Below, one piece after another: positions 30,346 to 56,640 of a DNA stretch of 56,640 bases. Where the stretch lies: NCBI GenBank assembly GCA_043803745.1, contig JAZDJS010000036.1, forward strand, positions 1 through 56,640, read 5' to 3'. This DNA is from an archaeon (GTDB taxonomy: Archaea > SpSt-1190 > DYHY01). The notes beneath the pieces were generated by a model. The model was not told where the DNA came from, did no database searches, and saw only the letters and a program-made list of their open reading frames with translations. Positions within the stretch are counted from its first letter, which is position 1, and every line of letters starts with the position of its first letter. The translations under genes and the position numbers were made by a program.

Positions 30346-30827
30346 AAAAACGCGCGCAGTCGTCAACGGAATATTTGGTTATCCTTGCGGTTGTGGTAAT
30401 AATCGCCCTCGCAGTGGTCGGGGTCCTTGGAGGATTCCCAACACTGACAAAAGGGGTATCGACGAAGGATTCGCTAGCATACTGGCAGTCGGGAGAGGTT
30501 GGGGTTGAAAAACCATATCTCTCAACCTCGACAAACTCCACGCTCGTCCTCCGGAACAACCAGAATTTCGGGATAACGATAACGGGGGTCTTTTTCAACA
30601 ACGCGCCTGCGCAAAACGGGACGAACTCGAACCTGCCCGCAACGCTTTCGCCCGGTCAGACTGTAACCGTCCTGATGACTGCGAACTCGACGAACCCCTG
30701 CATCGGAACGACTGCAGGTTCTGCGACGTTCTCCCCAATCGTGAAACTAACCTACTACGACACCTCGGCAAATGCGAACACATACCAGTTCACCGGAGCA
30801 AAGCCCCTCGTAGGAACGTGCCAGTAA
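30342..30827 (+). CDS. Major pilin paralog 2
   Basis: KRA-QSSTEYLVILAVVVIIALAVVGVLGGFP; ends GAKPLVGTCQ. Confidence 0.92.
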   Translation: MEKRAQSSTEYLVILAVVVIIALAVVGVLGGFPTLTKGVSTKDSLAYWQSGEVGVEKPYLSTSTNSTLVLRNNQNFGITITGVFFNNAPAQNGTNSNLPATLSPGQTVTVLMTANSTNPCIGTTAGSATFSPIVKLTYYDTSANANTYQFTGAKPLVGTCQ

Positions 30828-31080
30828 TAGGCTCGGGACTTCGCTGAGGCTCAGCCTTTGGTTGGTATCCAGCTTCTTAGCTGGACCTCGCTACCGTTCG
30901 GCCTGTCAGTAAATAGACCAACCAAAGATTTCGCCTGAGGGCTCAACCCTTAGTCAGCACGTGCCAGTAAGTCAACTGCCGACTACTGACCTCGTCCGGC
31001 TTCGGTCTTACTCGGCCGTTGGTTGGAACGATTCGCAGACCACCTTAGGCGGTCCGGCCGGTCCTCGGCTTGCCGGTATG
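30828..31080 (+). repeat. Array of recoded pilin 3'-end copies and hairpins (array A, 3 copies)
   Basis: Copies at 30849-30912 (34-nt insert), 30941-30970 (AQPLVSTCQ*) and 31010-31079 (40-nt insert, degenerate). Confidence 0.85.
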
Positions 31081-31831: not shown

Positions 31832-32331
31832 CAAAGAGCAAAGGACAACAGTCCAGAGGACAATCGTCAACGGAATATTTGGTTATCCTTGCGGTTGTGG
31901 TAATAATCGCCCTCGCAGTGGTCGGGGTCCTTGGAGGATTCCCAACACTGACCAAAGGGGTATCGACGAAGGATTCGCTAGCATACTGGCAGTCCGGGGA
32001 TATTGGCATTGAGCGCCCATATCTCTCAACCTCGACAAACTCCACGCTCGTCCTCCGGAACAACCAGAATTTCGGGATAACGATAACAGGCGTATTTTTC
32101 AACAACGCGCCTGCGCAAAACGGGACGAACTCGAACCTGCCCGCAACGCTTTCGCCCGGTCAGACGGTTGCAGTCCTAGTAACTGCGAACGCAACAAACC
32201 CGTGCAACGGGGGAAGTTCCGGCTCATCAACGTTCTCCCCGAGCGTGAAAATAACCTACTATGACACTTCATCCTCAGGGAACACATACCAGTTCACCGG
32301 AGCAAAGCCCCTCGTAGGAACGTGTCAATAA
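31828..32331 (+). CDS. Major pilin paralog 3
   Basis: SRG-QSSTEYLVILAVV...; long blocks nearly identical in nucleotide sequence to paralog 2; ends GAKPLVGTCQ. Confidence 0.92.
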   Translation: MAKSKGQQSRGQSSTEYLVILAVVVIIALAVVGVLGGFPTLTKGVSTKDSLAYWQSGDIGIERPYLSTSTNSTLVLRNNQNFGITITGVFFNNAPAQNGTNSNLPATLSPGQTVAVLVTANATNPCNGGSSGSSTFSPSVKITYYDTSSSGNTYQFTGAKPLVGTCQ

Positions 32332-32666
32332 TAGGCTCGGGACTTCGCTGAAGCTCAGCCTTTAGTTGGAACCTGCCAATAATCTGTTTGCCGACTACTG
32401 ACCTCGCTGAGGCTCAGCCTTTGGTTGATATCCAGCTTCTCAGCTGGACTTCGCTACCGTTCAGCCTGCTAGTAATTAGGCCAACCAAAGATTTCTCCAG
32501 TGCCCGCGGTTAACCCGATTTCGGGTGCGGGCACGGACCCTCTGAGGAGGGGCCGAAGCTCAGCCTTTGGTTGGTACCTGTCAGTAAATAGACCAACCAA
32601 AGATTTCGCCTGAGGGCTCAACCCTTAGTCTGAATTGTCCGCAGACAACCTTCGGCCTGCCAATAA
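32332..32666 (+). repeat. Array of recoded pilin 3'-end copies and hairpins (array B, 4 copies)
   Basis: Copies at 32353-32382 (AQPLVGTCQ*), 32412-32475 (34-nt insert), 32558-32587 (AQPLVGTCQ*) and 32616-32666 (21-nt insert). Confidence 0.88.
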
Positions 32667-34475: not shown

Positions 34476-35588
34476 ATGGCCAAGACAATTGCGTTTTTCT
34501 CCGGAAAGGGCGGCGTTGGAAAGACCTTCCTTGCAACCTCCCTTGGCGCAGCCCTCGTTTCCGAATTCCGCAAGAGGGTCCTCCTTGTCGAGGGCAACCT
34601 TTCGAGCCCGGGGCTCGGGGTCTTCCTTAACATTGTAAAGCCTGCCGCGACAATCCAGGACGTTCTTTCGGGCGCGGTAACTCCGGAAAGGGCGGTTTTC
34701 CACCACGATAACGGGCTTGATGTCCTGCCCGGCGCGCTCTCAATTGGCAGGGAGGCCATTGATTTCTCAAGGCTTGGCGCGCTTTCCCCGGTTTTCCAGA
34801 ACTATGATTTCGTCATAATCGACGGAGCGGGGACGATAACCGATGGCGAGCTTAGTTTCGCAAGGATTTCGGATGAGGTTGTCGTTGTCGCAACCCCGGA
34901 CCTCCCGTCAGTCACCGGCGCAATGAAGCTTATCGGGACGCTGCAAGCCCAGGGGATTTTCGTCAGGGGGCTCGCAATTAACCGGATGCATCCCTCGGAC
35001 AAGAGGCACGAGCTCAAGGATTCTGAAATCGAAAGCTCGACAGGGCAGAGGGTTCTCCTGAAGCTTCCAGAGGATACTGCGGTTCCGCAAAGCACTGCCG
35101 CAAGAACGCCCGCAACGCTTTTCGCCCCGTTTTCCCCGGCAACGCTTGAAGTCAAGAATTTCGCAGCCGATTTTTCCGGGGTTCCGAGGCCTGAGAAACC
35201 ATCCCTTATGCAGAAGCTTTTCGGCGGAGGAAAGAGCGAGGTGAAACAAGCTTCCCCGATTTTGTCCCCGCATCTCGAGGGGATACGGAGCTCGGTTGTC
35301 TCTTCAGGAGTTCCTCCAGGGTCCCTAACGGGTTCCCCCCAGGTCCGCCCGGAAATTCAGAACCAACCTGTAAGCAAGCAAAGCCAGCCAATTCCGGCGC
35401 AGCCACAGGCGCAGCCACAGGCGCAGCCACAACAACCCGATGCTTCAGCCGGCTCTCCGGCAAGCCCCCCGGCAAGCCCCCCGGCAAGCCCGCAAAAATT
35501 AAAAGACGACTACATGCGGCAGTGGATGGAAGGGAAAATAACCCTTGACCAGATGATGGAAAAGATCAAGGAACTGGAGAAGAAATAG
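34476..35588 (+). CDS. MinD/ParA-family ATPase with Pro/Gln-rich linker and C-terminal SHOCT-like helix pair
   Basis: Deviant Walker A SGKGGVGKT, YDFVIIDG, VVATPDLPSVT, LAINR; ATG 34476 below TTTAAAAA. Confidence 0.9.
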   Translation: MAKTIAFFSGKGGVGKTFLATSLGAALVSEFRKRVLLVEGNLSSPGLGVFLNIVKPAATIQDVLSGAVTPERAVFHHDNGLDVLPGALSIGREAIDFSRLGALSPVFQNYDFVIIDGAGTITDGELSFARISDEVVVVATPDLPSVTGAMKLIGTLQAQGIFVRGLAINRMHPSDKRHELKDSEIESSTGQRVLLKLPEDTAVPQSTAARTPATLFAPFSPATLEVKNFAADFSGVPRPEKPSLMQKLFGGGKSEVKQASPILSPHLEGIRSSVVSSGVPPGSLTGSPQVRPEIQNQPVSKQSQPIPAQPQAQPQAQPQQPDASAGSPASPPASPPASPQKLKDDYMRQWMEGKITLDQMMEKIKELEKK

Positions 35589-42597: not shown

Positions 42598-44952
42598 GTG
42601 GCTGAGCAAAACCCCCCGGCGCCATTTTTCATAATCCCCCCGGTCAGGATCTGCGACTTCCCGGACGTGCGCCTGCTTGCGCCATTCGTTGCCGCCGACT
42701 TCTTCTCCCGGATTTTCGGCGGGCAGGCCGTTTGCGCGACAATCTCGGACTGTCCCGAGGCAACTGCCGCGTTCAATTCAATCAGGGAGGCGCGCTTCCC
42801 CGTCCGCGAGAAATTCTCAAAAGAGGCCCTTCCGGACGATTTGCCCCTGATTGATTCAATGGAAAAATTTTCCAAGTATTTCCTTGGTAAGCTTGAGGAC
42901 GCGCTCACCCAGCTTTCGGCTTCCTCCTGCTCGCGCGTCAGTTCCGAAAGCCCCCTCGGGAAATCGGTTGCCGAGTATTTCCTCAGGGAAACTCGCCTGG
43001 CCGGGATTTCCGCCGAGGGGAAACCTTTCCAGCCATTCTGTCCGGAGTGCGAGGTCTTCCTCCCGTCCTTCGGAAAAATCTCCCGGAAGTTTTTCGCCCT
43101 TTTCCAGACCGGAGAATTCCATCTGGCAGTCGGTTTGGAAAAGCCGGAGGAGCTCTTTTCAGCATCCGCAATTTCAGTTGACCCGGAAAGCTTCCTTGAA
43201 ATTTCAGGCAAAATTCTCTCCGCGAAAGGGGACTTTCCAGGAAGCTTTTCGAGGAGTCCCGCCGCAGATTTCGTCGGGGCATCAGCCAAAAACCCCCTCA
43301 CCGAAGAGTTCGTCCCGATCCTTCCGGGGGAAAAACTGGGGATAGTCTCCCCGGGAACCCGGGAAAGCGACCTAAAGTTCCTGAAAAACTTCCCGGAGGA
43401 AACCGCGAGCAAGTGGGACCTTTCCCGGAAAAAGCTTGAGGAAATCCAGGTAAAATTCCCGGTGCGCGCAGGTCTCTTCACCGAAGCTTGCGGTTCCTTT
43501 TTCGGCTTTCCGGTCGAGGACGGGCGGCGGGCAATCCTTGCGGAGATTTCCAAACGGGGCGCGCTATTGGAGGTTCCTAAGGCCTCCGGAAAATGCTTTT
43601 GTGGGTGCGCGCTAGTCCCGAGGGAAACTACCGGGGACTTTTTCCTCCCGAGCAATTCAAGAATTCAGGAGAAACCCCAGGCATACCTTGGAAGGGAAAA
43701 TGCGCATTTCACGTTCCAGGCAATAGCCTCTGAAAGACTCTCCACCCAAATCCTTCCGCTCTTCTCCGGATTCCCCGAGGCGAAAAACCCGGAAGCATAC
43801 AGCTATCTTTTGGGGAACGAGAAAAACTTCAATCTTGTCTGGAAAGGGTCCGGCTATTCCCGCGAGGAGCTTCTTTCAGCCGGAAAAATTGTTTCGGACC
43901 GCTTCAGCCATGCAACGCTTGTCTGCCGGAGCTTCCGGGAAGCCCAGGAATTCTTCCTTGCCTCGCTAGCCTTCGAGCCGCTCGGAAGGATTCCCGACAT
44001 TTTTCAAATAAGCTCCCGGGCGGGATCGGGGCCCGCACCGGGGCCCGCACTCGCCTTTTCGGCAGCCCTGAGAAGCGGCCTTGCCGAGGAAATCCGGCTT
44101 GCGATACTCACCGGCAACCTTAATCCGGATGAGAAAGCCCTTCTCAGGCTGAAGAGGACAATCTCGAAATTCAAGCTTGAAGCGCTCCGGATCTCAAGCC
44201 TTCCGGAAGCTGCTACTGAGCGCAGACGCGGAGTCCTCTCCGCGGCATATTCCCGGAGGAAAGTCGATTTTCTTTCGGCAGCCGGGAGGCGCAGCATTCC
44301 CGAGGCAGTTTCCCAGGCGTTCCTCTTCCTTTCGGATTTCCGGGAGTTCGCGCGGTCCAACGGACAGAAATCCGAAGGGCTGGAAGTTTTCCGGAGTTTT
44401 GCGAAGGAAATCCTTGCGCCCCTGCTTCCAAAAACCTCCGAGGAAATACTCTCGAACCTCCGGGATATTGTCATAACTTCTCCCGAGCCCGATTCAATCG
44501 GGCCAAGCGAGGAAAAGCCGGAACAACTCGAGAAAATCCTCCTTTCCCGTGAAATCGTCGAAACGCTCCTTTCCGACTCAAGGAAGCTCGTTGAGCTTGC
44601 GGGAAAACCGAAGGAAATGAAGATTTACCTTGCCGAGGAGTGGAAATACCGGCTTTTCAGGAACATTTTCGAGTTCGGGGTGAAGCCCGGTCCAAACGAT
44701 CCGATTTTCCAAAGACTAGGAGTCAGCTTGCGGCCCGAAGAGCTTGAAAAATTCCTGCTTACCTTGAGGAAAACTCGATTTGACCGGGAGTTCCTTTCCC
44801 TTGACGAGGAGGCGCGCGCGATTTCAGGCGCAATTTCCCTCATTTCAGCGGAAACCGGGGTGAAAACAGTCCAGGTTCTTGTCAACCGGGAAATCCCATT
44901 CGAGAAAATGCTCCGAGCACGCCCGGGCAAGCCGGCAATCTTTTTTGACTGA
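42598..44952 (+). CDS. Degenerate leucyl-tRNA synthetase-like protein (no recognisable HIGH or KMSKS)
   Basis: Collinear remnants of archaeal LeuRS: FCPEC, KPEELF....VDPE, G.SAKNPLT.E.VPILP, CFCG, PEAYSYLLG, LAPLLPKTSEEI, KIYLAEEWK, ARPGKPAIFF. Confidence 0.75.
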   Translation: MAEQNPPAPFFIIPPVRICDFPDVRLLAPFVAADFFSRIFGGQAVCATISDCPEATAAFNSIREARFPVREKFSKEALPDDLPLIDSMEKFSKYFLGKLEDALTQLSASSCSRVSSESPLGKSVAEYFLRETRLAGISAEGKPFQPFCPECEVFLPSFGKISRKFFALFQTGEFHLAVGLEKPEELFSASAISVDPESFLEISGKILSAKGDFPGSFSRSPAADFVGASAKNPLTEEFVPILPGEKLGIVSPGTRESDLKFLKNFPEETASKWDLSRKKLEEIQVKFPVRAGLFTEACGSFFGFPVEDGRRAILAEISKRGALLEVPKASGKCFCGCALVPRETTGDFFLPSNSRIQEKPQAYLGRENAHFTFQAIASERLSTQILPLFSGFPEAKNPEAYSYLLGNEKNFNLVWKGSGYSREELLSAGKIVSDRFSHATLVCRSFREAQEFFLASLAFEPLGRIPDIFQISSRAGSGPAPGPALAFSAALRSGLAEEIRLAILTGNLNPDEKALLRLKRTISKFKLEALRISSLPEAATERRRGVLSAAYSRRKVDFLSAAGRRSIPEAVSQAFLFLSDFREFARSNGQKSEGLEVFRSFAKEILAPLLPKTSEEILSNLRDIVITSPEPDSIGPSEEKPEQLEKILLSREIVETLLSDSRKLVELAGKPKEMKIYLAEEWKYRLFRNIFEFGVKPGPNDPIFQRLGVSLRPEELEKFLLTLRKTRFDREFLSLDEEARAISGAISLISAETGVKTVQVLVNREIPFEKMLRARPGKPAIFFD

Positions 44953-45121
44953 ATGGAAGGCACAAACGTGCCGGCAGTCTGGAGCCAAAAGAGGGTAGGA
45001 AAACGGAAGGCAAGCCCGCAATTTTCTTCAAATGAACCCTTTGCAAAAGGCTTCACCCAAAGCGCCCCGTCTTCGCTTGAAAACTCGACAGGGCAAGCCC
45101 GCAATTTTCTTCAAGTTCTGA
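44926..45121 (+). repeat. Three copies of the GKPAIFF-coding gene end at an 83-nt period
   Basis: Copies start at 44926 (gene), 45009 and 45092; the latter two share an identical 23-mer GGCAAGCCCGCAATTTTCTTCAA. Confidence 0.88.
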
Positions 45122-45242
45122 GTTCCGAATCCACTGAAACTAATGACAAACTTTAAAAGGAGCCTCGGGGAAAAAAATCCACGGGGTATGTGGTGGTTTG
45201 GGGTTAGAACTCTCAACCAGAGATAGAAAGACTCAAAGGAAA

Positions 45243-48200
45243 GTGCGTCGAAAATCTCAGTTCAGCACTCTTTTAGTCGAAATCCTCCAGATTTTGGCTT
45301 TTACGAGCCTCGTCACCTTTCCCCTCTTTCAGCTCGCCATTTTCCCCGACCCGGCAGGCAATTTGAGCTCAGGGCTTGCTTTTTTCGACGAAAACGCCAC
45401 TGCGAACGTTTCAGGCAATTCTTCCCTTCCGAACGCCCCGGAACTTCCCGTCCTTGTGCAATATAGCTATTCGGTCCTTTTCAGGTCGCTTTTGCAACTG
45501 GAAAACGTCATTTTCCCCGGAGAAAGGTTCAATTTCACAGTTGAGATTTCTTCCCCTGAGAACGGGTCGACCTTCTTCGAGAACGGGACGGTTGTTTCAG
45601 CGAACTTTTCCGGGGAGAATCTCACAATAGACGAACTGGAATTCTCGGCAAACCTTTCCGGGGAGGATGCCGGGCTGAACATCACCGGGAGCGCAAGCGC
45701 GCCGGAACCCGGGGAATTCGAGATTCTTGCAAACATCAGCATTCTCTCGCCAGCCGGAACCGGGAATTTCTATACAATTTCCTCCAAAGTTGTCATATCC
45801 GCAGTCAGGGAACTCTTCTTTTCCCTGAGCGCGCCGGAACGGGCATATGTCGGCGAGAACTTCTCGGTTTCAGCTGCCCTTTTGAACGGAACGGATTCCC
45901 AAAGCTCATACTTGAATTTCTCAACCGAGCCAGGCCTCACAATCCTCGATGGTCAGGATGCCAACTGTTCCGGCGGAGACTGCAACCTTACCGCGACAAT
46001 TGTCGCGAACGAAACCGGGAACAGGACGATTTTTGTGACAGCATTCCTCCCGGACAAGAACCTCACCCTTGACAAGAACCGGACCGTCCTGATACTTGAC
46101 AGGCCGCTTGAGTTCAGCGCAATCCCCCCTGAAATATCCGAGACCGCCTCTCCCGGAACCTCATATTCTGCCGAAATCTCCCTCCTCTCGAACAGGGAAC
46201 TGGCGGTCCTGGCAGAATTCGAGGGTTCCTCAGCCAACGCAACAATTAACGAGACAGAATTCAACCTATCCGCAGGAATTCCCCACCCAGTCCTCCTTGC
46301 AATTGACATCCCGGCTGAAGGGAACTATTCTAGCTCCCTTGTCTTCCTCCACCAGTTCGGCAACCTGACAATACCCGTCCTGGTAGTTGCCGCGCTTCCC
46401 GAGAATTATTCGGTGCCGGTTCCGCTGGTAATTTCAGCCGCAATAAACACGACCGAAGTTGAGCTTGGGCGCGAGCGGGTGCGGCTTCAAGCAATCCTTG
46501 AAAATCCCGAGGCTGCGGCATATGTGACCTTTTCGGTTATCAGGCCTGACGGGCACGAGCAGGTCCTCCTGACGAAGCGGGAGGGCGCAGCCTTCCTAAA
46601 CGATTACATGCCGACCAAGCTGGGCGCCCACGCATTCTCGAACATTACCGTCTGGGACGTTTCCTCGAACCTCCTCTCATATTACGAACCCGAGAACTTG
46701 ACCTTCCTCTCGGTCGCCCCCCGGTTCGCCGAAGGCTCATATTCAGTTGCGGAAATTTCCGAACGCAAGGAGCAGGACGTCTTTTCCGGTGACCACAGGA
46801 AGGTAATCAAGACCCTCGCAGTACAGAACCTCCTTGAAACCGAGCTTTACGGATTCTCCCTTGAAGGGACTTTCGAGCTGCCGGAGGATGCCGAGAACGT
46901 CCAGGTCAAGAATTCGGATTACGAAACTGTCCGGACAGAAACCGAGCCCCTTTCGCCCGGGGAGACACGGACATACTATCTTGAATACGAATACAATTTC
47001 AGGGACAGGTATCTCAAGGAGAACGGGATATGGATTCTCCCGGACAGGAAATCCTATGACGCGACCGGCGGAATCTTCTCCTCGAAAATCTACATCAGGA
47101 ATTTCAGGGAGAAGGACTTCTATTCCGAGATAATCCCCTCCTTCGACGAGCGGCTCGAGCTTGTCGGGGCATACAGGATTGATTACGAGCCAGCCCTTTT
47201 CGAGACTGAGGTTGAAATTTTCAACGAAACCTGCCTTGAGGAGGCGGAAACAGAAAGCACCTGCATAATCGGGACGAGGATTGAGAACATCTCTGCAATG
47301 CAGCCAGTCCAGGTCCCCCTCGACATCCTCGGAAACTACAACCCGGAAGAAAATCCCCTTTTCGCAAGAATTCCCGAGAGGGACAAGCCTCCAAGTGTCT
47401 TTGAAGGCGGCCTTGAAAGACGGGCCGCTTCGGTTTCCCAGGAACTTACTAGGGATTCGACAACGACAATCAAGCTGGTCTTCCGCACAAGTGAATTCGG
47501 CTCAGGGGAATTCTATGTCGGAGTTACCGGGCTTGAGAAGCTTGACGAAGGGTCCGGATTTTCATCCCAGAAAATCGGAGAGCCGGAAACCCTTGCGTTC
47601 GGCCTTGACCCTGCCTGGACAAGCGGCCCCTGGCGGATGGAGGACGGCTTTGCAAGGGGGACTACCGGGGACATTTCTCACGCAGCAGTCAGTGGAAACG
47701 TCGTTAACACATTCAGCACTGTCGATATGGCGCCTTTGGAGGGCACTTCCGGGTTCGACGACGGCTTCGAGGCCGAATTCGACATTGCGGACTATGGAAC
47801 CTGGGGGGATACTAACAGCCATGCGGCAGTCTACCTGAAGAAGGATTCGGGGAACGGCACTGCGAACACAGCCCCGTATGCAATTGTCGGGATTGCCTAT
47901 TACGACGACCAGTATGACGACGACCTTGACCAGGTAACTGTCGGCTTCGACAGGGACGGGGACGGGGTTCTTGAGGACTGGGACTTCCAGATATACAACC
48001 TTATGGATGACGGGACAACAGACACATCCCAGATACGATATTATTCAAGCGGCTCCTGGGGTTCCTGGCAGAACCTTCCTTCCGCAATAACTTCCTCGGC
48101 TGAATACTCGACCTCCTGGGAAGTCGAGTTCCGCTTCCCCCTCTACAACCTGACCCAGACATTCGACCCGGACTGGCTTAACACAAGCAGGATTTGGATA

Positions 48201-51200
48201 AGCTTCTTTGACGCCGACGGCACAAGCACTGACAGGACCGTCAACATTTCCGGGACGGGGACTGATGCATCCACCTGGATACAATTCACATACAACTCCT
48301 CAAACCTCCCGCCGATAATAAACCTGGAATATGCCTGGCAGGTCCCGGACAACACAACTGCGATAACATTCGAAACCTATGGCGCGGGCTCCGCAACCTG
48401 CGCAGCAACCGACGGAGCGGGGGGCTTCACCCCGAACTCCGACTGGACCGATGCTTTCGAGGACGAGTTCAGCTTCGGGACAAACCCGATAAGGACGGGG
48501 GACCCCTGGGGCGTTAGCAGCTATCCGAACGGCGCGATATACCTGAAGAAGAATTCGGGAGCAATCGGCGCCTCGACAGAAACAGTCCCTTTCCTATATG
48601 TCTGCTATGCGATGTATGACGATGACGAGGACGCCGACCTTGACGACATCCGGTTTGTCTTTGACCTTAACGGGAACGACATAATTGACGAGAACGATAC
48701 CTATTTCAGGCAGACAATGGACGACGGGAACAACGACAACGCCCTGATAAAGGCAACCTACTGGATAAACGGCTGGAACGCCTCGGCAAACCTCGGCTAC
48801 TCAATGGGAACGATAGGCAGCGCAACGGGGGGCACTGCCGAAAGATGGGCTCCTTCGGCAGCAACCGGATACTGGAACCTTGAAGGAGGAATTTCCTTCT
48901 ACGACATTTATGGGGCTGCCTTTTCAGGCAAGGACCCGGACCAGCAGATAAACAAGACCCGGATTTCCTTCTCAACCTGGGACCGGGGGGGTTCCTCCGC
49001 AACCGACATCGGGAACTATGCCCTGACTGGGAACTTCACCGGCAAGTGGAACAACGGAACATATCTTGGGACCTGGATAGGCGACAGCCTGAACGTCGTA
49101 TATGTCTCCTCAATTGACACGACCGCCCCGGCAATAACAATCGCATCCCCCCAGAACCAGTCCTACTTCTCCGAATGGATATATGCGAACCTCTCCTCTG
49201 ACGAGACCCTCGATTTCTGCTACTCCTCCCTGAACGGCGCAGCGAACACGACAATGGCGAACAGCACGGCGAACAGGACGACCTTCTACTACAACCTTTC
49301 GGCAATTGTCAACGGGCTGAACAACATCTCCTTCCACTGCGTCGACCGGGTCGGGAACGGGAACGTCTCGGCAGTCTATTTCACGGTTGACCGGGACAAG
49401 CCGGTGATATACCGCAGTTCCCCGGAGAACGTCACATATACATATAGCGACATCCAGTTCAACCTCTCAATAAGCGAGCCCTCCGACTGGTGCGGGGTTT
49501 CCCTGAACGGCGCCAATAACGTCTCGATAACCAGGTTCAACTCAACCCAGTTCAACAGCACGATTTCCCTCTATGACGGGTTCTTCGGGGCGAGCTTCTC
49601 TTGCAACGACACCCAGAGCAACTGGAACGCCTCGACCGCCAATGTCTATTTCTCGATTGACACGACGGAACCCGACGTCAACCTCTGCTCGGCTAACAAG
49701 ACATTCCTGAAACAAGGGGAAGCCGCCCGCCTCTCCTGCAACGCGACCGACTACGGCAACATAACCTCGCCAATCAACTACACATACCACAAGACGACAA
49801 CAGAATGCACCTCCGAGCGCCTCGTCTCATACTCGGGCCAGAGCAACGGGCCCGCCTGCGGATATGACGGCTCGACCTGGAGCGACGACGACTATTACAG
49901 GGTGCTCTCCGGAACTGCAATATCAGCCTTCTACAACTTCACTGTCCCCAATTCCTCGATATCCGGGATAAGCCTCCTCTCGAACGTCTGGATGTCCTCG
50001 TCAAGGCAGCTGGACATATACATCTACAACTCGACCCTCGGGGACTATCAGAACATCAATTCGGTGCCGCTTGGCTCAACAGCAACCTCCGACTATGGGA
50101 ACTGCGACGGGCAGTGGGGGAGCCAGGCTGCCTGCGTTTCATCAACCCTTTGCTCAGGTCCTACCGGCTGCAGCCAGATAATCCTTTCCGGGAACCGAAT
50201 CGAGGTCGGATATTCCATCAGCTACATCTCCGGGCTTTCGTTCTACAACGACAAGCAGGCAATTGTGATGAACCTCACCGGGATAAACGCCTCGACAACC
50301 TTCTGGAATTCAACCCTCGTATGCTCGGAGACTGCAAACTACACCTGGCTCTCGACATCCGCAATGGATTCCTCGGGCAACTACAACCTCACGACCGGGT
50401 TCTTTCCGATAACAGTCAAATGCGACGTCCAGGCGCCCTCGGTCAACAACACAGCTGTCAGAAACTCCACAAACGCCTCCCAATCAGTTTTCTTCATCGG
50501 CGACGTTGTCAGGCTCAACTTCAACGCAAGCGACTATGAGAATGGGCTTTCGTACAGGGTCATCTCAATCTACGACCCCGATTCCATCCTCCTTGTGAGC
50601 AACGCAAGCATGACTGCCGCCTCCAGTCAGCCCTTCCAGTGGTTCTATGATTTCAATACAGATTCCAGGAAGAACGGGACATATACCGCCTACATGTGGG
50701 CTAACGACACTTCAGCGAACTTCAACTCTACAAGCAACACATTCACCGTCAACAACGAGACTTTCTACAACATGTTCATCTCGACGAACGCGACAGACAT
50801 CAGCAAGACCCGCTCATTCGCCCTTGCCTGCAACGCATCCTGCAACGGGACTGTCTGCAACTCGACCGGAGCCTATCTCCAATGGAACAACTCCGGCTCC
50901 TGGGCAACTGTCCCCTCCTCGGCAACAGCCCTGACCGCGAACGCCACAATCTATTCCTGCGGGAACATCGGAAACACAAGCACCTGCCAGCGGACCTGGG
51001 AAGTTACCGGGAACACTGCCGGAACTTATTATCTCCGCTGCCTCTACAACTCGACAAGCGCAATAACGAACAACACCGCGACCCAGGCGGAAACAGTCCA
51101 TGTCGGAACCCTCGCAATAAACATCTCAGCGCCCTACCAAGAGCCCCACATCATAAACAAGACAGACACATTCCTCCTCAACATCTCGGCAATCTGCTAC

Positions 51201-54200
51201 AATTGGTACTGCGGCATCCCGACAATCTCAACCTATCTTAACGATTCCACCACCCTCCCGACAACCCTCATAGGCGCAGGAACGACTGTCAAGCGCGAAT
51301 CGGGCGAGGCAAACCCGTTCACTTGTTCCAGCGCCCTTGACCCGCTGGGCTCCGGCACAAGAACCTGCAACCAGACAATGACGGTAAACATGACCGCCGT
51401 CGCAACGAGGCTGATTGGCGCGAACGTCTCCTCTTCGGACGGGCAGGTTTCAAGCAACGTCACTGCAAGCAACAGGACAGTTGGCGGAAAGGTCGGAACC
51501 CTCACCCTTGCCTGGATCGACCCCCTTTCGGCTGACATTGACAAGATAAGTTCCGACACGGTTGGCACAAGAGTAACCTGCAACAGCTACAAATGCTTCA
51601 CAGCAACGGTTTCCGTCAGGAACGCAACCGGAGACTCGGCAATACCGACAATAGCCACAACCCAGCCGCTAAACATAACCTCGGGTACCCAGCCCCAGGA
51701 CTGCGGCTCAATGAACCCCGGAAACACCTGCGACAAATCCTGGACACTTTTCGGCGCAAGAAGCGGGGCTGAAACGGTCAATTTCCGCGCGGATTCCTCA
51801 GACCCCGACATTTCTTCAGGATATTCTACCAGCTCTTCAACAACAGTCCATGTCGGAACCCTCGCAATAAACATCTCAGCCCCCTACCTGGACCCTTACA
51901 TCGTCAACAAGACAGACACATTCCTCCTCAACGTCTCGGCAATCTGCTACAGCTGGTATTGCGGAATCCCGACAATCTCAACCTATTTGAACGACTCAAC
52001 AACGCTCCCGACAACCCTGATAGGAGCCGCAACAACAGTCAAGAGGGAATCCGGCGAGGCAAACCCGTTCACCTGCTCGAGCGCCCTGGACCCGGGAGGA
52101 AGCGGAACCCGCTACTGCAACCAGACAATGACGGTCAACATGACCGCTGTCGCAACCCGGCTCATTGGGGCAAACATTTCTTCAGCTGACCCGGATGTTC
52201 TTTCAAACGTCACCGTAAGCAACAGGACAGTTGGCGGAAAGGTCGGGACACTTTCATTCACTTCAGTTCCGACGACAGACTTTCTTAACAAGACAGACAC
52301 CCGCACCGCGAGCTACCAAATTCTCTGCAGCAATTACAAATGCTTCACAGTTTCAGCCTATTTGGAGAACTCGACAACCGGGGGGCTTGTCCCAACAGGG
52401 GAAACGACTGAGAAGCTCAATATTTCCTCGGGCACCCAGCCCCAGTCCTGCGGCTCAATGAACCCCGGAAACACCTGCGACAAATCCTGGACAATTTTCG
52501 GCGCGCACAACGGGACGGAAAACATCAATGGGAACGCAACCTCCTCAGACAGCAATGTGGCCCCGTTGGATTCAAGCCAAACCAACTATAGGGTTTTCGT
52601 CGGGACGCTCGGGATTTCCTGGCAGGACGACATTATCGCGAACATTTCCAAGACCCGGATGGACTGGGTCAACTCAACACTCACCTGCTCGGGCTTCAAA
52701 TGCTTCACAGTTGACCTTTACCTCAGGAACACCACAAGCAACACCAACATCCCCGCTGGCTCGACAACCGAGCCCCTCAACATTTCCTCAGGAAGCCAGC
52801 CGGAAAGCTGCCTTACAATGGTCCCAGGGGATTCCTGCACCAAATCCTGGCTCCTCTTCGGCGCAATGAAGGGTGCTGAGGATGTGAAAGTCGTCTCAGT
52901 CCCGAAGGATTCCGAGGTTGTCCAGGTGAACACGACAATCAATTCAACCTATGTCCGCACCGGATGGCTCGAGCTCCTAATGGGCGCCCCCCCGACAACA
53001 CCCAATCCGTTCATGCTTACCGTAAACAGGACACCCTGGACATTCAACATGACGGTTGTCTGCCACGACTGGTTTTGCGGCAAGCCGGTGATATCCGCCC
53101 TAGTTAACGACACCTCAGCAAATCCGGCCACAATTGTCGCAAGTGACGTTTCGACAACCGTCAAGCGGGAGGTCGGGGATGCGAACCCCCTGACATGCGC
53201 AAGCAACCTTGACCCGAACGTGGTCGGGGGAACCGCCAACTGCAGTTTGAACTTCACCGCGAACTACACATATTTCGGCTATGCCCACATCGGCGGAAAC
53301 GTTACCGGGCAAGACTCTGATGTTCTGACGAACGTCACCTATACCAACCGCACCCTGAAAGGCGTCCTCGCCGGCCTCCGCCTTAACCTGACCCATGTGC
53401 CGAACCCGATTTCCAAGACAACAAACTACACTCAGATGTGCTCGGTCAACTGCACAGATGCTTCCTGCGACGAGACATTCATCTTCCCCCAGTATTACAA
53501 CGGAACGAACTGGATCAACCTTCCCCGGACCCTTGAAGACCCGCTCCAGGCGAACGAAAGCCTCTATTACTGCGGAACCGTCCTTGCCAACCAGGTATGC
53601 CTCAAGGAATGGTCTGTCCGCGGGAACACTTTCGGCGACTATAACATCCGTTGCTATGCGAACTCGTCAACGGCAGTGCCGACCGAGGAAACCTCGACAT
53701 CCGAATGGCACAACGTTACCGTCGGGACGCTTTCCGTCAAGGTTATTTCCCCGACAAGCTTCCAGGACATTGTAATCAACCAGACTGTGAGGAACTTTTC
53801 GATTGTCGCCAACGTGACCTGCAACAACTATCTCTGCTTCAACGTTTCCTCCTATGCCCGGCTCAACTCCTCCGGCTCGACAATGGTTTTCGCCCCGACA
53901 TCCGGGGTGAGCCAGCTATTCTATGTCGACATCCAGCCGAACTACTCAGCCCAGAACATGACGGTCGGCCAGAGCAAGAACGTCACCTGGTGGGGGAACG
54001 CGACGTTTATCGGGACGACGCTCCTCGAGGTCGGAAGCAACCAGACCGACAATTTAACGATGAACTATTCCGCCCAGACAACCTTCTCCTTCATCAACCT
54101 GCAGACGGAAACATCAGCAAATTCCGTCAACTCAACCCAGACCGGCTCCGTCCTCGGCGGCTGGGGTGAGACTTACCGCTATAACATCACTCTCAAGGAT

Positions 54201-56640
54201 TCGGAATATGACAACGCAACCTGCAACCTTTGGATAAACAAGAGCTCTTCAGCAGCCCTGATAAACGGCGGAAGCACCGTTGTCCAGACCAATGAGACCT
54301 GCTCGCTCACCTATTCAAGCTTCAACTATTCCGACATTTCCGGGAGCCACTATTACTTCTTCACGATAAACGACACGTTCCATCAGTTCAACACTTCAGC
54401 CTATTCCGGGCCGCAGATTGAGAAGGACAACATAACCGCCGCAATAACGGCTGGCTCTTTCAGCACCGTCAACAGGAGCTCAAGCCAGACAACGACCCTT
54501 TCAATACAGCTGAACGACTCCGACCTTAACACGCCGGTGCCTTTGGGAACGAACTGCACAATCTGGGCAACGACCGACCAGGCAACAACCTGGGCTTTCG
54601 CGAACAACAGCACGGCAGATGCAAGCGGAATCTGCACAATACAGTTCAATCCCGACTGCGCATATTCAATCATCGCGACCGGGGACCACCAGTGGAAGGG
54701 CGGCACCACAGGCAACACGGCATATTCGCATTTCAACGTAACAGCCTCGACAGTCTATATCCGGGGGGATATGGACCCGCTGCCCTATATCCCGAATTCA
54801 AGCCAGCTCTATTACCAGGGAGAAACCTTCACTGCAAGGGGCAAGCTTTACGACGAATGCGGAGTTCAGCAGACGGTTGTCGCGACAAACGTCAAGTTCT
54901 ATGCGGTGAATGGGAGCAACGAATATGATGTCTGCGGAGCAACCGCCTATGTCAATCCGAACTACCAATGCGTTATGGCAACCGCAACCCTCCCAGTCGC
55001 GACATACAAGCTCAAGCAGAACGTAACCGATTCCGGCTATCTTAACCGCGCAAGCAACACAACCTCTTTTGTCTCCTTCCGCGTGCAGGCGGCATACGCT
55101 AACGTCTCAATTTCAACCAACCTGACCAGTCAGTCCTACACGGTAAACGGGATAAACCAGTCAACCGGGAACTATTCGACAGTCCAAGTCAACCTCACGA
55201 ACACCGGGCTTGGGGCAACATATGACCCGAACTCAACCTGGCAGCTTCCCCCCGGATGGTCGGCGAACCCCGCAACCCTGTTCTATTCGAACATTTCCGA
55301 AGGGGGCAATGCCCAGAACATTTCCACACTGACCGTCCCGGCGGGAACCGCCCCTGCCAACTACATAGTCAACATAACCGCTGGCTGGAAGAACCCGAAC
55401 ATTTCCCTGTCCGGAACGAACAACTCCTCGATAACAATAGTTGTCTCGCCGCACCCCACCCTTGACCTCCTTGACAAGACAATTGCGTACACCCTTGATC
55501 ATGCAAGCACTGCCGCAATAGGGACCTTCCGGGTCAACTCGACTGGGAACACAAACATTTCAGGAATAAATTTCACAAGGAATGCGGGAACCCTTCCGGG
55601 AGCCTGGCTTTCCTTCAACTACACAAACATCTCGATAATCCAGGCTGCCCAGATGAACATAACCCAGATTTCGGCAACTGTCCCTAACGGCACGGCTGCC
55701 GGGAACTACTTTGCCAACTACACGATAAACGCGACAGGCTCCTCCTGCTTCCTCTCCCTCTGCTGGAACTATCTCAACGTTACCGTCACAGTGCCTGACA
55801 ACAGGAACTGGACAAGGGTTCCGGACACTTTCGGGAACGTCACAGTCTACACAAACACCGCAGGGACAATAGGCAACATAACCTCAACAAGCCGGGCGAA
55901 CACTGAGATAAACCTGACCACCGGAGTCACCGGGAACGGCTCGGCGCTCATCTCCCTCTCGAACTCCTCAGTCTACCTGAGCATCCAGGAAATCGAGAAC
56001 CTGACCGTTACCTATTCAATCCCATACACCCAGCCATTCGGCGAATATTACGCGAACGTTACCCTTACAAATTCATCGGCAAGCCCCGTCCAGCAGAACG
56101 CGACGCTAATCCTCCACGTTGTCGACAACATCCTCCCGAACGTTTCCAGCCTGACCTTCTCCCTAACCCCGCTTGATGAGCAGTTCGAGTCAACCAATCT
56201 GACTGCCAACGGGACGGACAACAACGCAGTCCACTCAGTCTGGTTCGAGCTTACCTTGCCAAACACAACCCACGAGAACCTCAGCGCAACAGCCCTGACC
56301 GCCCTGCCCTACTCGAACTACTACAGGTATTCCGGATATGTCCCAAGGCTCAACGGCACAATCTCCGTGCGCGCCTGGATAAACGACACGAGCGGAAACC
56401 TGAACTCAAGCATCCTCGGCTCCTTCGAGGCAATTGGATATAGCAACTTCTCCATAATCTCAAACCTGACAAATAACAAGTACACTGTAAACGGAATAAC
56501 CCAGCAGACATCAAACTACACTACAGTCAACCTCACCCTGAACAACACCGGATTCGGCGCAGGCAGGAACTCAAACATCACCTTCTCCCTCCCCGGGAGC
56601 TGGACCGCGAACCCGAGCCCGCTCTACTACGGAAACATCT
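45243..56640 (+). CDS. Giant secreted surface glycoprotein, truncated by the window end (at least about 3799 aa)
   Basis: The frame opens after TGA at 45144. It translates cleanly where I read it (start, middle, end), and the ORF track has no stop-terminated ORF in this frame. It begins MRRKSQFSTLLVEILQILAFTSLVTFPLF (alternative TTG start at 45198). Dense N-x-S/T sequons, Cys pairs and internal repeats. Confidence 0.9.
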   Translation, partial: MRRKSQFSTLLVEILQILAFTSLVTFPLFQLAIFPDPAGNLSSGLAFFDENATANVSGNSSLPNAPELPVLVQYSYSVLFRSLLQLENVIFPGERFNFTVEISSPENGSTFFENGTVVSANFSGENLTIDELEFSANLSGEDAGLNITGSASAPEPGEFEILANISILSPAGTGNFYTISSKVVISAVRELFFSLSAPERAYVGENFSVSAALLNGTDSQSSYLNFSTEPGLTILDGQDANCSGGDCNLTATIVANETGNRTIFVTAFLPDKNLTLDKNRTVLILDRPLEFSAIPPEISETASPGTSYSAEISLLSNRELAVLAEFEGSSANATINETEFNLSAGIPHPVLLAIDIPAEGNYSSSLVFLHQFGNLTIPVLVVAALPENYSVPVPLVISAAINTTEVELGRERVRLQAILENPEAAAYVTFSVIRPDGHEQVLLTKREGAAFLNDYMPTKLGAHAFSNITVWDVSSNLLSYYEPENLTFLSVAPRFAEGSYSVAEISERKEQDVFSGDHRKVIKTLAVQNLLETELYGFSLEGTFELPEDAENVQVKNSDYETVRTETEPLSPGETRTYYLEYEYNFRDRYLKENGIWILPDRKSYDATGGIFSSKIYIRNFREKDFYSEIIPSFDERLELVGAYRIDYEPALFETEVEIFNETCLEEAETESTCIIGTRIENISAMQPVQVPLDILGNYNPEENPLFARIPERDKPPSVFEGGLERRAASVSQELTRDSTTTIKLVFRTSEFGSGEFYVGVTGLEKLDEGSGFSSQKIGEPETLAFGLDPAWTSGPWRMEDGFARGTTGDISHAAVSGNVVNTFSTVDMAPLEGTSGFDDGFEAEFDIADYGTWGDTNSHAAVYLKKDSGNGTANTAPYAIVGIAYYDDQYDDDLDQVTVGFDRDGDGVLEDWDFQIYNLMDDGTTDTSQIRYYSSGSWGSWQNLPSAITSSAEYSTSWEVEFRFPLYNLTQTFDPDWLNTSRIWISFFDADGTSTDRTVNISGTGTDASTWIQFTYNSSNLPPIINLEYAWQVPDNTTAITFETYGAGSATCAATDGAGGFTPNSDWTDAFEDEFSFGTNPIRTGDPWGVSSYPNGAIYLKKNSGAIGASTETVPFLYVCYAMYDDDEDADLDDIRFVFDLNGNDIIDENDTYFRQTMDDGNNDNALIKATYWINGWNASANLGYSMGTIGSATGGTAERWAPSAATGYWNLEGGISFYDIYGAAFSGKDPDQQINKTRISFSTWDRGGSSATDIGNYALTGNFTGKWNNGTYLGTWIGDSLNVVYVSSIDTTAPAITIASPQNQSYFSEWIYANLSSDETLDFCYSSLNGAANTTMANSTANRTTFYYNLSAIVNGLNNISFHCVDRVGNGNVSAVYFTVDRDKPVIYRSSPENVTYTYSDIQFNLSISEPSDWCGVSLNGANNVSITRFNSTQFNSTISLYDGFFGASFSCNDTQSNWNASTANVYFSIDTTEPDVNLCSANKTFLKQGEAARLSCNATDYGNITSPINYTYHKTTTECTSERLVSYSGQSNGPACGYDGSTWSDDDYYRVLSGTAISAFYNFTVPNSSISGISLLSNVWMSSSRQLDIYIYNSTLGDYQNINSVPLGSTATSDYGNCDGQWGSQAACVSSTLCSGPTGCSQIILSGNRIEVGYSISYISGLSFYNDKQAIVMNLTGINASTTFWNSTLVCSETANYTWLSTSAMDSSGNYNLTTGFFPITVKCDVQAPSVNNTAVRNSTNASQSVFFIGDVVRLNFNASDYENGLSYRVISIYDPDSILLVSNASMTAASSQPFQWFYDFNTDSRKNGTYTAYMWANDTSANFNSTSNTFTVNNETFYNMFISTNATDISKTRSFALACNASCNGTVCNSTGAYLQWNNSGSWATVPSSATALTANATIYSCGNIGNTSTCQRTWEVTGNTAGTYYLRCLYNSTSAITNNTATQAETVHVGTLAINISAPYQEPHIINKTDTFLLNISAICYNWYCGIPTISTYLNDSTTLPTTLIGAGTTVKRESGEANPFTCSSALDPLGSGTRTCNQTMTVNMTAVATRLIGANVSSSDGQVSSNVTASNRTVGGKVGTLTLAWIDPLSADIDKISSDTVGTRVTCNSYKCFTATVSVRNATGDSAIPTIATTQPLNITSGTQPQDCGSMNPGNTCDKSWTLFGARSGAETVNFRADSSDPDISSGYSTSSSTTVHVGTLAINISAPYLDPYIVNKTDTFLLNVSAICYSWYCGIPTISTYLNDSTTLPTTLIGAATTVKRESGEANPFTCSSALDPGGSGTRYCNQTMTVNMTAVATRLIGANISSADPDVLSNVTVSNRTVGGKVGTLSFTSVPTTDFLNKTDTRTASYQILCSNYKCFTVSAYLENSTTGGLVPTGETTEKLNISSGTQPQSCGSMNPGNTCDKSWTIFGAHNGTENINGNATSSDSNVAPLDSSQTNYRVFVGTLGISWQDDIIANISKTRMDWVNSTLTCSGFKCFTVDLYLRNTTSNTNIPAGSTTEPLNISSGSQPESCLTMVPGDSCTKSWLLFGAMKGAEDVKVVSVPKDSEVVQVNTTINSTYVRTGWLELLMGAPPTTPNPFMLTVNRTPWTFNMTVVCHDWFCGKPVISALVNDTSANPATIVASDVSTTVKREVGDANPLTCASNLDPNVVGGTANCSLNFTANYTYFGYAHIGGNVTGQDSDVLTNVTYTNRTLKGVLAGLRLNLTHVPNPISKTTNYTQMCSVNCTDASCDETFIFPQYYNGTNWINLPRTLEDPLQANESLYYCGTVLANQVCLKEWSVRGNTFGDYNIRCYANSSTAVPTEETSTSEWHNVTVGTLSVKVISPTSFQDIVINQTVRNFSIVANVTCNNYLCFNVSSYARLNSSGSTMVFAPTSGVSQLFYVDIQPNYSAQNMTVGQSKNVTWWGNATFIGTTLLEVGSNQTDNLTMNYSAQTTFSFINLQTETSANSVNSTQTGSVLGGWGETYRYNITLKDSEYDNATCNLWINKSSSAALINGGSTVVQTNETCSLTYSSFNYSDISGSHYYFFTINDTFHQFNTSAYSGPQIEKDNITAAITAGSFSTVNRSSSQTTTLSIQLNDSDLNTPVPLGTNCTIWATTDQATTWAFANNSTADASGICTIQFNPDCAYSIIATGDHQWKGGTTGNTAYSHFNVTASTVYIRGDMDPLPYIPNSSQLYYQGETFTARGKLYDECGVQQTVVATNVKFYAVNGSNEYDVCGATAYVNPNYQCVMATATLPVATYKLKQNVTDSGYLNRASNTTSFVSFRVQAAYANVSISTNLTSQSYTVNGINQSTGNYSTVQVNLTNTGLGATYDPNSTWQLPPGWSANPATLFYSNISEGGNAQNISTLTVPAGTAPANYIVNITAGWKNPNISLSGTNNSSITIVVSPHPTLDLLDKTIAYTLDHASTAAIGTFRVNSTGNTNISGINFTRNAGTLPGAWLSFNYTNISIIQAAQMNITQISATVPNGTAAGNYFANYTINATGSSCFLSLCWNYLNVTVTVPDNRNWTRVPDTFGNVTVYTNTAGTIGNITSTSRANTEINLTTGVTGNGSALISLSNSSVYLSIQEIENLTVTYSIPYTQPFGEYYANVTLTNSSASPVQQNATLILHVVDNILPNVSSLTFSLTPLDEQFESTNLTANGTDNNAVHSVWFELTLPNTTHENLSATALTALPYSNYYRYSGYVPRLNGTISVRAWINDTSGNLNSSILGSFEAIGYSNFSIISNLTNNKYTVNGITQQTSNYTTVNLTLNNTGFGAGRNSNITFSLPGSWTANPSPLYYGNI
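51093..52590 (+). repeat. 750-bp (250-aa) internal tandem duplication in the giant ORF
   Basis: ACAGTCCATGTCGGAACCCTCGCAATAAACATCTCAGC at 51093 and 51843; TTGGCGGAAAGGTCGG at 51481 and 52231. Confidence 0.9.

What the first reader, a model, noticed from the sequence alone, without database searches (positions are those of the whole stretch)
44926..45121. Second locus with recoded gene-end copies: GKPAIFF x3 at an exact 83-nt period
The gene ends GGC AAG CCG GCA ATC TTT TTT GAC TGA (44926-44952). Copies read GGC AAG CCC GCA ATT TTC TTC AAA TGA (45009-45035, stop in the same position) and GGC AAG CCC GCA ATT TTC TTC AAG TTC TGA (45092-45121). All four differences in the seven shared codons are synonymous third positions. 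The two 60-nt spacers are unrelated but equal in length, and each has a small hairpin just after the stop (44959-44972 and 45033-45055). As in the pilins, the left boundary is at or next to a Lys-Pro codon pair.
Basis: seen in the sequence. Interest (0 to 1): 0.8.

Follow-up and report, generated by a model that had tools for sequence, protein, structure and literature searches.

The report
Stacked spare ends behind archaeal gene
Behind a gene of a tiny uncultured archaeon lie two untranslated, differently spelled copies of its last codons and stop, probably old gene ends pushed downstream each time a short piece of DNA replaced the end.

Summary
A 23-nt unit stands at 44926, 45009 and 45092, with a period of exactly 83 nt. 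Copy 1 is the end of a 784-aa leucyl-tRNA-synthetase paralogue. Copies 2 and 3 are identical to each other and differ from copy 1 at four synonymous third positions. The two 60-nt spacers are unrelated.

It is one case of a genome-wide pattern. In this 1.23-Mb genome 11 of 1381 ORFs are trailed by copies of their own last seven codons (14 copies; 0 in two controls). Most copies are respelled, and most are followed at once by a stop. The same occurs in a congener and in a second genus. It was not convincingly seen in 500 kb of an order-level relative.

Best reading, confidence 0.55: these are stacked former gene ends. Short modules (gene end, stop, about 60 nt of flank) replaced the end repeatedly at one fixed junction, with the newest next to the gene. 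The geometry matches yeast WHO elements or phage 21 at icd, but the inserts are tiny and no recombinase was detected.

The mechanism and the donors are unresolved, and no reads were available to test the assembly. This scan had already noted the pattern at tRNA genes of this genome and at gene ends in other genomes. I found no description of it in print.

The parts
42598..44952 (+). 784-aa ORF (P0001), a divergent paralogue of leucyl-tRNA synthetase. Its last 8 codons and stop form copy 1.
   Evidence: ORF list and translation. Residues 573-784 align to residues 721-932 of the genome's true LeuRS (29% identity, E = 2e-11) and end in the same motif. The true LeuRS has the Pfam class-I synthetase, anticodon-binding and editing domains; P0001 has no Pfam hit.
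44926..44952 (+). Copy 1, the working gene end: the 23-nt unit plus the rest of the last codon and TGA. It uses the rare Phe codon twice, which makes a run of six T.
   Evidence: Codon counts: the rare Phe codon occurs 15 times in the gene body and 3478 times in the genome sample, the common one 50 and 11520 times.
44953..45008 (+). Spacer 1, with a 5-bp hairpin at 44959-44972. It has no relative elsewhere.
45009..45035 (+). Copy 2: the same seven codons respelled, then Lys and TGA in the same position as in the gene. Untranslated.
   Evidence: There is no in-frame start, and an upstream stop lies 28 codons before.
45036..45091 (+). Spacer 2, unrelated to spacer 1. It is 75% identical over 61 nt, in the opposite orientation, to a non-coding stretch at contig C48:16089-16149.
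45092..45121 (+). Copy 3: identical to copy 2 over 23 nt, then two more codons and TGA. Read here as the oldest end, next to the original flank.
   Evidence: In the arrays examined, the three copies that lack an immediate stop are all the most distal of their array.
45122..45197 (+). Flank between the array and the next gene, with an A/T-rich box at about 45150-45161. It is probably the original 3' flank and the promoter region of the giant ORF.
   Evidence: Read. Promoter function is inferred, not tested.
45198..56639 (+). Giant ORF of at least 3814 aa that runs off the contig. It is a neighbour, not part of the array.
30800..31040 (+). Same phenomenon in this window: respelled end copies behind pilin-like gene 30342-30827.
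32301..32640 (+). Same phenomenon in this window: respelled end copies behind pilin-like gene 31828-32331. One copy is followed by a 10-bp inverted repeat of its own codons.

Best explanation
The two downstream units are former 3' ends of the LeuRS-paralogue gene. On two occasions a short module (the last seven or eight codons, a stop, and about 60 nt of flank) was joined to the gene body at one fixed junction, just 5' of the unit at 44926. It replaced the working end and pushed the previous end downstream.

Copy 3 is therefore the oldest end and lies against the original flank. Copy 2 is the next. Copy 1 is the newest and is the one now translated.

The copies are relics. They keep the protein spelling because each was a working gene end, here or in a related lineage, until it was displaced.

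The same process acts on at least ten other protein genes and on tRNA genes of this archaeal family. Inferred, not shown: the modules move between related lineages by recombination, with the gene body as the left arm and the conserved gene end as the short right arm. This is the geometry of yeast WHO elements and of phage 21/e14 at icd, but without any gene inside the insert.
For: Shown:
- The three copies share one sharp left boundary and have unrelated flanks on both sides.
- Clock argument. Copies 2 and 3 are non-coding yet identical over 23 of 23 nt. Copy 1 differs from them at four synonymous sites and in the last codon. Copy 1 therefore cannot have drifted away in place from copy 2 and must have come from elsewhere.
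- Copies 2 and 3 use the gene's and the genome's preferred Phe codon; copy 1 uses the rare one.
- Genome-wide, 14 copies lie behind 11 of 1381 ORFs, against 0 and 0 in the reverse-strand and permuted-peptide controls.
- In 19 copies behind 11 genes, nucleotide differences fall 15, 10 and 74 on codon positions 1, 2 and 3. There are 65 synonymous against 17 non-synonymous codon changes, and 16 of 19 copies are followed at once by a stop (the copies were picked by peptide likeness).
- An unbiased nucleotide scan shows an excess over controls: 31 against 6-10 hits at 15 of 21 identical, and 11 against 1-3 at 16 of 21. Of these, 6 and 3 keep the peptide. Neutral decay predicts 0.6% and 2%.
- Copy-to-gene distance equals the distance to the orthologue of a congeneric species: 10 against 10 of 42 nt, 6 against 6 of 21, 8 against 6 of 30.
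- Where an orthologous locus exists, the extra units are an insertion between the gene and its conserved flank. At C18:2715 the congener has none and this genome has four units in about 340 nt; at C11:3813 the insert is 130 nt.
- The three copies without an immediate stop are each the most distal of their array.
- The aIF2-beta gene carries such a copy in three independent assemblies from two genera. The distal copy fits the species tree better than the working end does: 3, 4 and 7 differences against 6, 6 and 5. The G000-G001 figures are computed; those involving G003 I counted by eye from the sequences printed.
- In several arrays each copy is followed by its own matching inverted repeat, so gene end and hairpin travel as one module (locus C49:67089).

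Basis in print: the WHO model, in which the 3' end is replaced, old ends are pushed to the right and the newest lies next to the gene (passages read in PMC7282813).
Against: - No donor was found. The 23-nt unit of copies 2 and 3 has no match in metagenome or viral contigs, and only one match in species genomes, inside an unrelated bacterial gene. The protein has no homologue with a C-terminus in any collection.
- No enzyme was found. This genome, 90% complete, has no hit to tyrosine or serine recombinase, Cas1, reverse transcriptase, TnpB or Y1 transposase.
- The order of events at this locus is inferred from other loci.
- The equal unit length of 83 and 83 nt with unrelated spacers is explained only by assuming deep divergence of homologous modules.
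- The identity of copies 2 and 3 could also come from gene conversion.
- A 23-nt right arm is very short for homologous recombination.
- Many of the diverged copies in the genome do not keep the peptide.
- No read-level support for the assembly could be obtained.
Confidence: 0.55

Rival explanations
1. Local tandem duplication of an 83-nt segment (gene end plus flank) by replication slippage, followed by drift. Gene conversion keeps some copies alike.
For: The congener has perfect tandem arrays of this kind, 61 nt x 2.3 and 67 nt x 2.6, with identical spacers. Unit lengths are similar within arrays: 52, 55, 55; 58, 60; 83, 83.
Against: Here the spacers are unrelated while copies 2 and 3 are identical, the opposite of what drift after duplication gives. 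Differences from the working end are almost all synonymous, where neutral decay predicts 0.6-2% peptide-keeping copies. Several young cases have the layout A-B-A-C, not A-B-A-B.
Confidence: 0.12
2. Independent one-off scars of homology-facilitated illegitimate recombination after uptake of DNA from relatives. There is no mobile unit and no fixed site.
For: This explains foreign-looking working ends and untranslated old ends without any recombinase. Earlier follow-ups of this scan reached this reading for two Patescibacteria genes (not tested here).
Against: Two events at this locus, and three or four at C18:2715 and C49:67089, share the same left boundary and nearly the same unit length. The same genes are hit in different genomes. 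The copies are always short, 7 to about 18 codons; long gene fragments were not seen.
Confidence: 0.12
3. The repeats are working cis-elements, such as protein-binding sites or terminator modules between the gene and the giant ORF's promoter. They are kept by selection on the DNA or RNA itself.
For: Copies 2 and 3 are exactly conserved while the spacers are not. The aIF2-beta copy persists in two genera with only third-position changes. Copy 1 carries a run of six T, the usual archaeal termination signal (established knowledge; the run is seen).
Against: Conservation follows the codon pattern of the upstream gene, not a nucleic-acid motif, and the sequence differs at every locus. The folds are no better than shuffles. 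There is no Rfam match and no terminator-like site on this strand.
Confidence: 0.1
4. A CRISPR-like or 'neo-CRISPR' array: an integrase of the Cas1 or casposase type inserted 60-nt fragments and duplicated a 23-nt pseudo-repeat.
For: Equal spacer length with unrelated spacer sequence. An identical 23-nt repeat flanks spacer 2. The congener has a Cas1 gene.
Against: No Cas1 was found in this genome. The first repeat is a gene end and is respelled. Duplication lengths elsewhere vary from 8 to 43 nt and inserts from about 30 to 112 nt. No CRISPR family was found in Rfam. The one virome scan run, with the 23-nt repeat, found nothing; the spacers themselves were not scanned.
Confidence: 0.06
5. Assembly artefact: strain variants of the gene end were chained together.
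For: The genome is a metagenome bin. Two apparent gene-end copies in the congener straddle runs of N and are scaffolding artefacts.
Against: The locus lies more than 11 kb from either contig end and holds no N. Strain variants would share their flanks, and these do not. The same layout occurs at the same gene in three independent assemblies.
Confidence: 0.03

Closest known systems
WHO homing elements at yeast FBA1 (Coughlan et al. 2020, PMC7282813; passages read)
   Same: The 3' end of a conserved gene is replaced again and again. Older ends are pushed downstream as fragments, the newest lies next to the gene, and the downstream fragment serves as the second homology arm.
   Different: WHO units carry an endonuclease gene, and their gene fragments are about 400 bp. 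Here the units are 51-140 nt, hold no gene, and no nuclease is known. The setting is archaea, not yeast meiosis.
Prophages e14 and 21 at the icd gene, and integrative elements at tRNA gene ends (recalled from memory; not read here)
   Same: The element enters the 3' end of a gene and brings a replacement end that differs mainly at synonymous sites. The old end stays at the far junction.
   Different: Those inserts are kilobases long and encode an integrase. Here the inserts are about 60 nt, form arrays, and no integrase was found in the genome.
Insertion with long target duplication (Furuta et al. 2010, PMC2853133; passages read)
   Same: DNA is inserted with a duplication of tens of bases of the target and with no mobility gene. 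One published case overlaps the last 15 bp of a gene.
   Different: The published inserts are restriction-modification genes and the duplicates are near-identical. Here the inserts are non-coding, about 60 nt long, often respelled and stacked.
C-terminal displacement in rhs genes (Jackson et al. 2009, PMC2935791; search listing and start of abstract only)
   Same: New gene tips displace old ones, which pile up downstream.
   Different: The rhs tips are long and encode different toxins. Here the tips encode the same few residues.
CRISPR arrays
   Same: Short repeats are separated by unrelated spacers of equal length.
   Different: See the membership test: no cas genes, the first repeat is coding, and the repeats are respelled.

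Membership tests
CRISPR array | Near-identical direct repeats of about 23-47 nt | tested here: inconclusive
   Two of the three copies are identical. The first is 78% identical and is coding.
CRISPR array | Unrelated spacers of uniform length | tested here: met
   The spacers are 60 and 60 nt, with 18 of 60 identical in register. They are longer than is usual for CRISPR (recalled).
CRISPR array | Cas1 or other cas genes in the genome | tested here: not met
   No PF01867 hit in this genome, which is 90% complete.
CRISPR array | Match to a known CRISPR repeat family | tested here: not met
   No Rfam match at E <= 1 in 44600-45400.
Integrase-mediated integrative element (attL/attR) | Direct repeats that overlap the 3' end of the target gene | tested here: met
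Integrase-mediated integrative element (attL/attR) | An integrase encoded in or beside the insert | tested here: not met
   The inserts are 60 nt. No PF00589 or PF00239 hit in the genome.
WHO-type homing element | Replaced 3' end plus stacked displaced ends, newest next to the gene | tested here: inconclusive
   The layout fits. The order is supported only by other loci: the copies without a stop are the most distal, and the distal aIF2-beta copy looks native.
WHO-type homing element | An endonuclease gene inside each unit | tested here: not met
   The units are 83 nt and hold no ORF.
Insertion with long target duplication | Target duplication longer than 30 bp, no mobility gene, insert absent from a related genome | tested here: inconclusive
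   The duplication here is 23 nt and there is no related locus to compare. Other loci of the class meet the criterion: 40-43 nt duplicated, and the insert is absent from the congener.
Diversity-generating retroelement (template and variable repeat) | Differences confined to adenines of the template, and a reverse transcriptase nearby | tested here: not met
   The differences are G/C, C/T and T/C at third positions. No PF00078 hit.
Simple tandem repeat | Units alike along their whole length | tested here: not met
   The spacers are unrelated, and Tandem Repeats Finder does not list the array.

The most novel reading that the evidence does not exclude
The units are members of a self-spreading, gene-free 'gene-end cassette' system of Micrarchaeota-like archaea. 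A cassette consists of a respelled end, a short flank and a copy of the target's last codons. It moves between lineages using the conserved codons as its homology arm. Its respelling protects the essential gene from a sequence-directed nuclease or guide, encoded elsewhere, by a virus or by the host cell of these symbionts. This would be a natural 'cleave and rescue' drive, and each array would be a dated record of invasions.
Probability: 0.15. Interest if true: 0.85.

Novelty: new variant of a known kind. Interest (0 to 1): 0.6.

Why it matters
If the reading is right, conserved genes of these very small archaeal genomes have their ends swapped repeatedly by short gene-free pieces of DNA. The cast-off ends then form a small fossil record behind each gene.

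That would be a cheap marker of DNA exchange between uncultured lineages. It would also explain odd repeats that annotation pipelines may mistake for CRISPR arrays or tandem repeats. And it poses a mechanistic problem: site-precise insertion with no recombinase detected in the genome.

This locus adds two things to the earlier tRNA observations in the same genome. Protein genes are hit too. And the codon pattern shows that the copies were once working ends.

Tried and rejected
- Orthologous loci for this gene. Among 41 genomes only one (G003) has an orthologue (31% identity), and its C-terminus is cut off by the contig end; the other matches are the true LeuRS. The metagenome protein scan found none, and the 5.8-billion-protein search found only the query itself.
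- Donor allele. The exact 23-nt unit gave 0 matches in metagenome contigs and 0 in viral contigs. It gave one match in species genomes, which lies inside an unrelated bacterial gene on the other strand and is a chance hit. DNA search of 17 genomes of the class found no match outside this genome.
- Reads. One public run holds only a 151-nt contig at 44483-44633, so nothing can be said about the repeats.
- Downstream copies of the LeuRS motif in the 19 fetched loci of other genomes: none.
- The true LeuRS end of this genome is spelled differently from copies 2 and 3, so it is not their source.
- The motif TCTGGAG recurs in several spacers, but it is not enriched downstream of genes: 0.097 against 0.102 per kb.
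- Spacer 2's match to C48. The differences are spread evenly over codon positions (6, 5, 4) and the region is non-coding, so it is not a captured gene piece from a relative.
- Translation of the copies. There is no usable frame for copy 2. Copy 3 lies in a 29-codon ATG frame that I take as chance.
- A search for large elements bounded by gene-end copies was uninformative, being dominated by paralogues and repeats. No att-like repeat was found around the congener's integrase.
- Hairpins, Rfam and terminator scans gave nothing significant at this locus. PDB sequence search with P0001 found nothing.
- aIF2-beta in five more genomes: no copy in G002, G005 or G009. G004 and G007 were not evaluated because my frame extension failed.
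The same distances were then computed from coordinates.
- Literature searches found no description of this pattern in archaea. Supplementary files were not consulted.
Full report
**What is there.** The window is a whole 56,640-nt contig (C36) of a 1.23-Mb, 51-contig genome that is 90% complete. Earlier notes of this scan place the genome near Micrarchaeum.

At 44926, 45009 and 45092 stands a 23-nt unit with start-to-start spacing of exactly 83 and 83 nt. Copies 2 and 3 are identical; copy 1 is 78% identical to them.

Copy 1 is the end of ORF 42598-44952, 784 aa. Over the seven shared codons (GKPAIFF) the four differences are all synonymous third positions. Copy 2 keeps a stop in the same place, and copy 3 has it one codon later.

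The two 60-nt spacers are unrelated: 18 of 60 identical in register (shuffle P = 0.21), and a global score of -12 against a shuffle mean of -12.4. Tandem Repeats Finder does not report the array.

The small hairpins exist, but the units fold no better than shuffled sequence. There is no Rfam match and no terminator-like site on this strand.

**The gene.** The ORF has no Pfam hit, no PDB hit and no homologue among 5.8 billion proteins except itself.

Its last 212 residues align with the C-terminal 212 of the genome's true leucyl-tRNA synthetase (29% identity, E = 2e-11). That protein has 932 aa and the Pfam class-I synthetase, anticodon-binding and LeuRS editing domains. Both proteins end in the same conserved motif.

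The repeated unit therefore covers the conserved C-terminal motif of a LeuRS paralogue. The true LeuRS has no extra copies, and its end is spelled differently.

**It is one case of a genome-wide pattern.** I took the last seven residues of each of 1381 greedily chosen ORFs and searched the 400 nt downstream in three frames, allowing one mismatch. This gave 14 copies behind 11 genes. It gave none on the reverse strand and none with permuted peptides.

Besides this gene, the trailed genes include the following:
- two pilin-like genes of this window;
- aIF2-beta;
- a thermosome subunit;
- a secretion-type ATPase;
- an RNase J-like nuclease;
- an HTH/S-layer-like protein;
- in further arrays seen along the way, thioredoxin reductase and an AlaX-like protein.

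A looser scan showed arrays with near-constant steps: 83, 83 here; 60, 70, 122, 63; 52, 55, 55; 58, 60.

**The copies carry the mark of coding selection.**
- In 19 copies behind 11 genes, differences from the working end fall 15, 10 and 74 on codon positions 1, 2 and 3.
- There are 65 synonymous against 17 non-synonymous codon changes.
- 16 of 19 copies are followed at once by a stop.

Those copies were picked by peptide likeness, so I also ran a scan by nucleotide identity alone.
- Hits at 15 of 21 and 16 of 21 identical exceed the three controls: 31 against 10, 9, 6, and 11 against 1, 2, 3.
- Of these, 6 and 3 keep the peptide with at most one change. No control hit does.
- Random substitution predicts 0.6% and 2%.
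- Many diverged copies do not keep the peptide, so the class also contains decayed members.

**Relatives.**
- The same scan on a congeneric genome (G001, fetched whole, 1362 ORFs) gave 10 copies behind 8 genes. Two of these straddle runs of N and are scaffolding artefacts, which leaves 8 copies behind 6 genes. Most are exact, including perfect tandems of 61 and 67 nt.
- A 480-kb sample of a second genus of the family (G003, 482 ORFs) gave 4 copies behind 3 genes.
- A 500-kb sample of an order-level relative (G004, 516 ORFs) gave one doubtful hit without a stop.
- Three genes are hit in more than one genome, with different spacing.
- aIF2-beta carries a copy in G000 (+57), G001 (+115) and G003 (+53). 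I saw none in G002, G005 or G009, and two further genomes could not be evaluated.

**Direction and origin.**
- Where orthologous loci exist, the extra units are an insertion between the gene and its conserved flank. At C18:2715 the congener has no unit, and this genome has four respelled units within about 340 nt before the shared flank resumes. At C11:3813 a 130-nt insertion holds a 43-nt exact duplicate.
- Copy-to-gene distances equal the distance to the congener's orthologue. The copies are thus as far from the working end as another species is, yet they keep the protein.
- For aIF2-beta the distal copies fit the species tree (3, 4, 7 differences) better than the working ends do (6, 6, 5). 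The G000-G001 figures come; those involving G003 I counted by eye from the sequences printed.
- The three copies without an immediate stop are each the most distal of their array.
- At this locus, copies 2 and 3 are identical although non-coding, while copy 1 differs at four synonymous sites. Copy 1 therefore did not drift away from them in place. It also uses the rare Phe codon twice, where they use the common one.

Together these points favour addition of new modules next to the gene, with older ends pushed downstream.

**Modules.** In several arrays each copy is followed by an inverted repeat of its own codons, and the repeat changes in step with the respelling (C49:67089; pilin). Gene end and hairpin therefore travel together.

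Some spacers belong to small repeat families:
- a T-rich hairpin element of about 87 nt that also lies behind tRNA genes;
- a two-hairpin element of about 55 nt.

The two spacers of this locus belong to neither family. Their only match is 75% over 61 nt to a non-coding stretch on another contig.

**Mechanism.** The genome has no hit to tyrosine or serine recombinases, Cas1, reverse transcriptase, TnpB or Y1 transposase. The congener has one integrase and one Cas1.

[quoted passage not shown] It also recalls insertion with long target duplication (PMC2853133, passages).

I therefore commit, at 0.55, to serial replacement of the gene end by short modules at a fixed junction. These modules probably spread between related lineages by recombination through the conserved codons.

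Replacement, direction and former coding use are supported by the data above. The transfer route and any enzyme are inferred.

**What could not be done.** No orthologue with a C-terminus, no donor allele and no reads were available for this locus. The order of events here, and the assembly itself, therefore rest on analogy with other loci and on recurrence in three independent assemblies.

**Relation to earlier notes.** This scan had already reported duplicated tRNA gene ends in this genome, and respelled gene-end copies in other genomes, including a Micrarchaeota case. I used those notes as leads.

The WHO paper came from one of them, and I read its passages myself.

My literature searches found no description of the pattern in archaea.

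Noticed in passing
window 45198-56639: Giant ORF of at least 3814 aa that runs off the contig end and starts about 75 nt after copy 3. An A/T-rich box lies about 35 nt before it.
   Followed up: no
window 42598-44952: LeuRS paralogue whose catalytic part is unrecognisable: no Pfam or PDB hit and no homologue in 5.8 billion proteins. Only the last 212 residues align to the true LeuRS.
   Followed up: partly
window 29159-34410: Four pilin-like paralogues. Two are trailed by several respelled copies of their last 9-13 codons plus stop, and one of these copies is followed by a 10-bp inverted repeat of its own codons.
   Followed up: partly
G000 contigs C11:3718-3804, C34:5671-5698, C42:16411-16461, C15:39487-39527: A T-rich hairpin element of about 87 nt is shared by two gene-end spacers and lies directly behind tRNA genes. 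It looks like a two-way terminator module.
   Followed up: partly
G000 C1:14782-15558 and C21:86075-86150: A two-hairpin element of about 55 nt sits in the end of an AlaX-like gene, whose stop is lost so that the ORF runs 9 codons into the element. It also sits after aIF2-beta copy 2, where 8-nt direct repeats flank it.
   Followed up: no
G000 whole genome: No hit to the tyrosine recombinase family, so not even a Xer-type enzyme was found in a genome that is 90% complete.
   Followed up: no
G001 contigs C1, C6, C7: Contig C1 repeats part of C6. Two apparent gene-end copies (C6:87911, C7:52838) straddle runs of N and are scaffolding artefacts that mimic the pattern.
   Followed up: yes
G000 C21:15588 and C21:86031: The same 11-nt word occurs 5 nt after the stop of both the true LeuRS gene and the aIF2-beta gene. 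Its meaning is unknown.
   Followed up: no
window 35396-35491: Two perfect 12-nt x 3 tandem repeats inside the 393-aa ORF 34407-35588. They encode short Pro/Gln/Ala-rich repeats.
   Followed up: no
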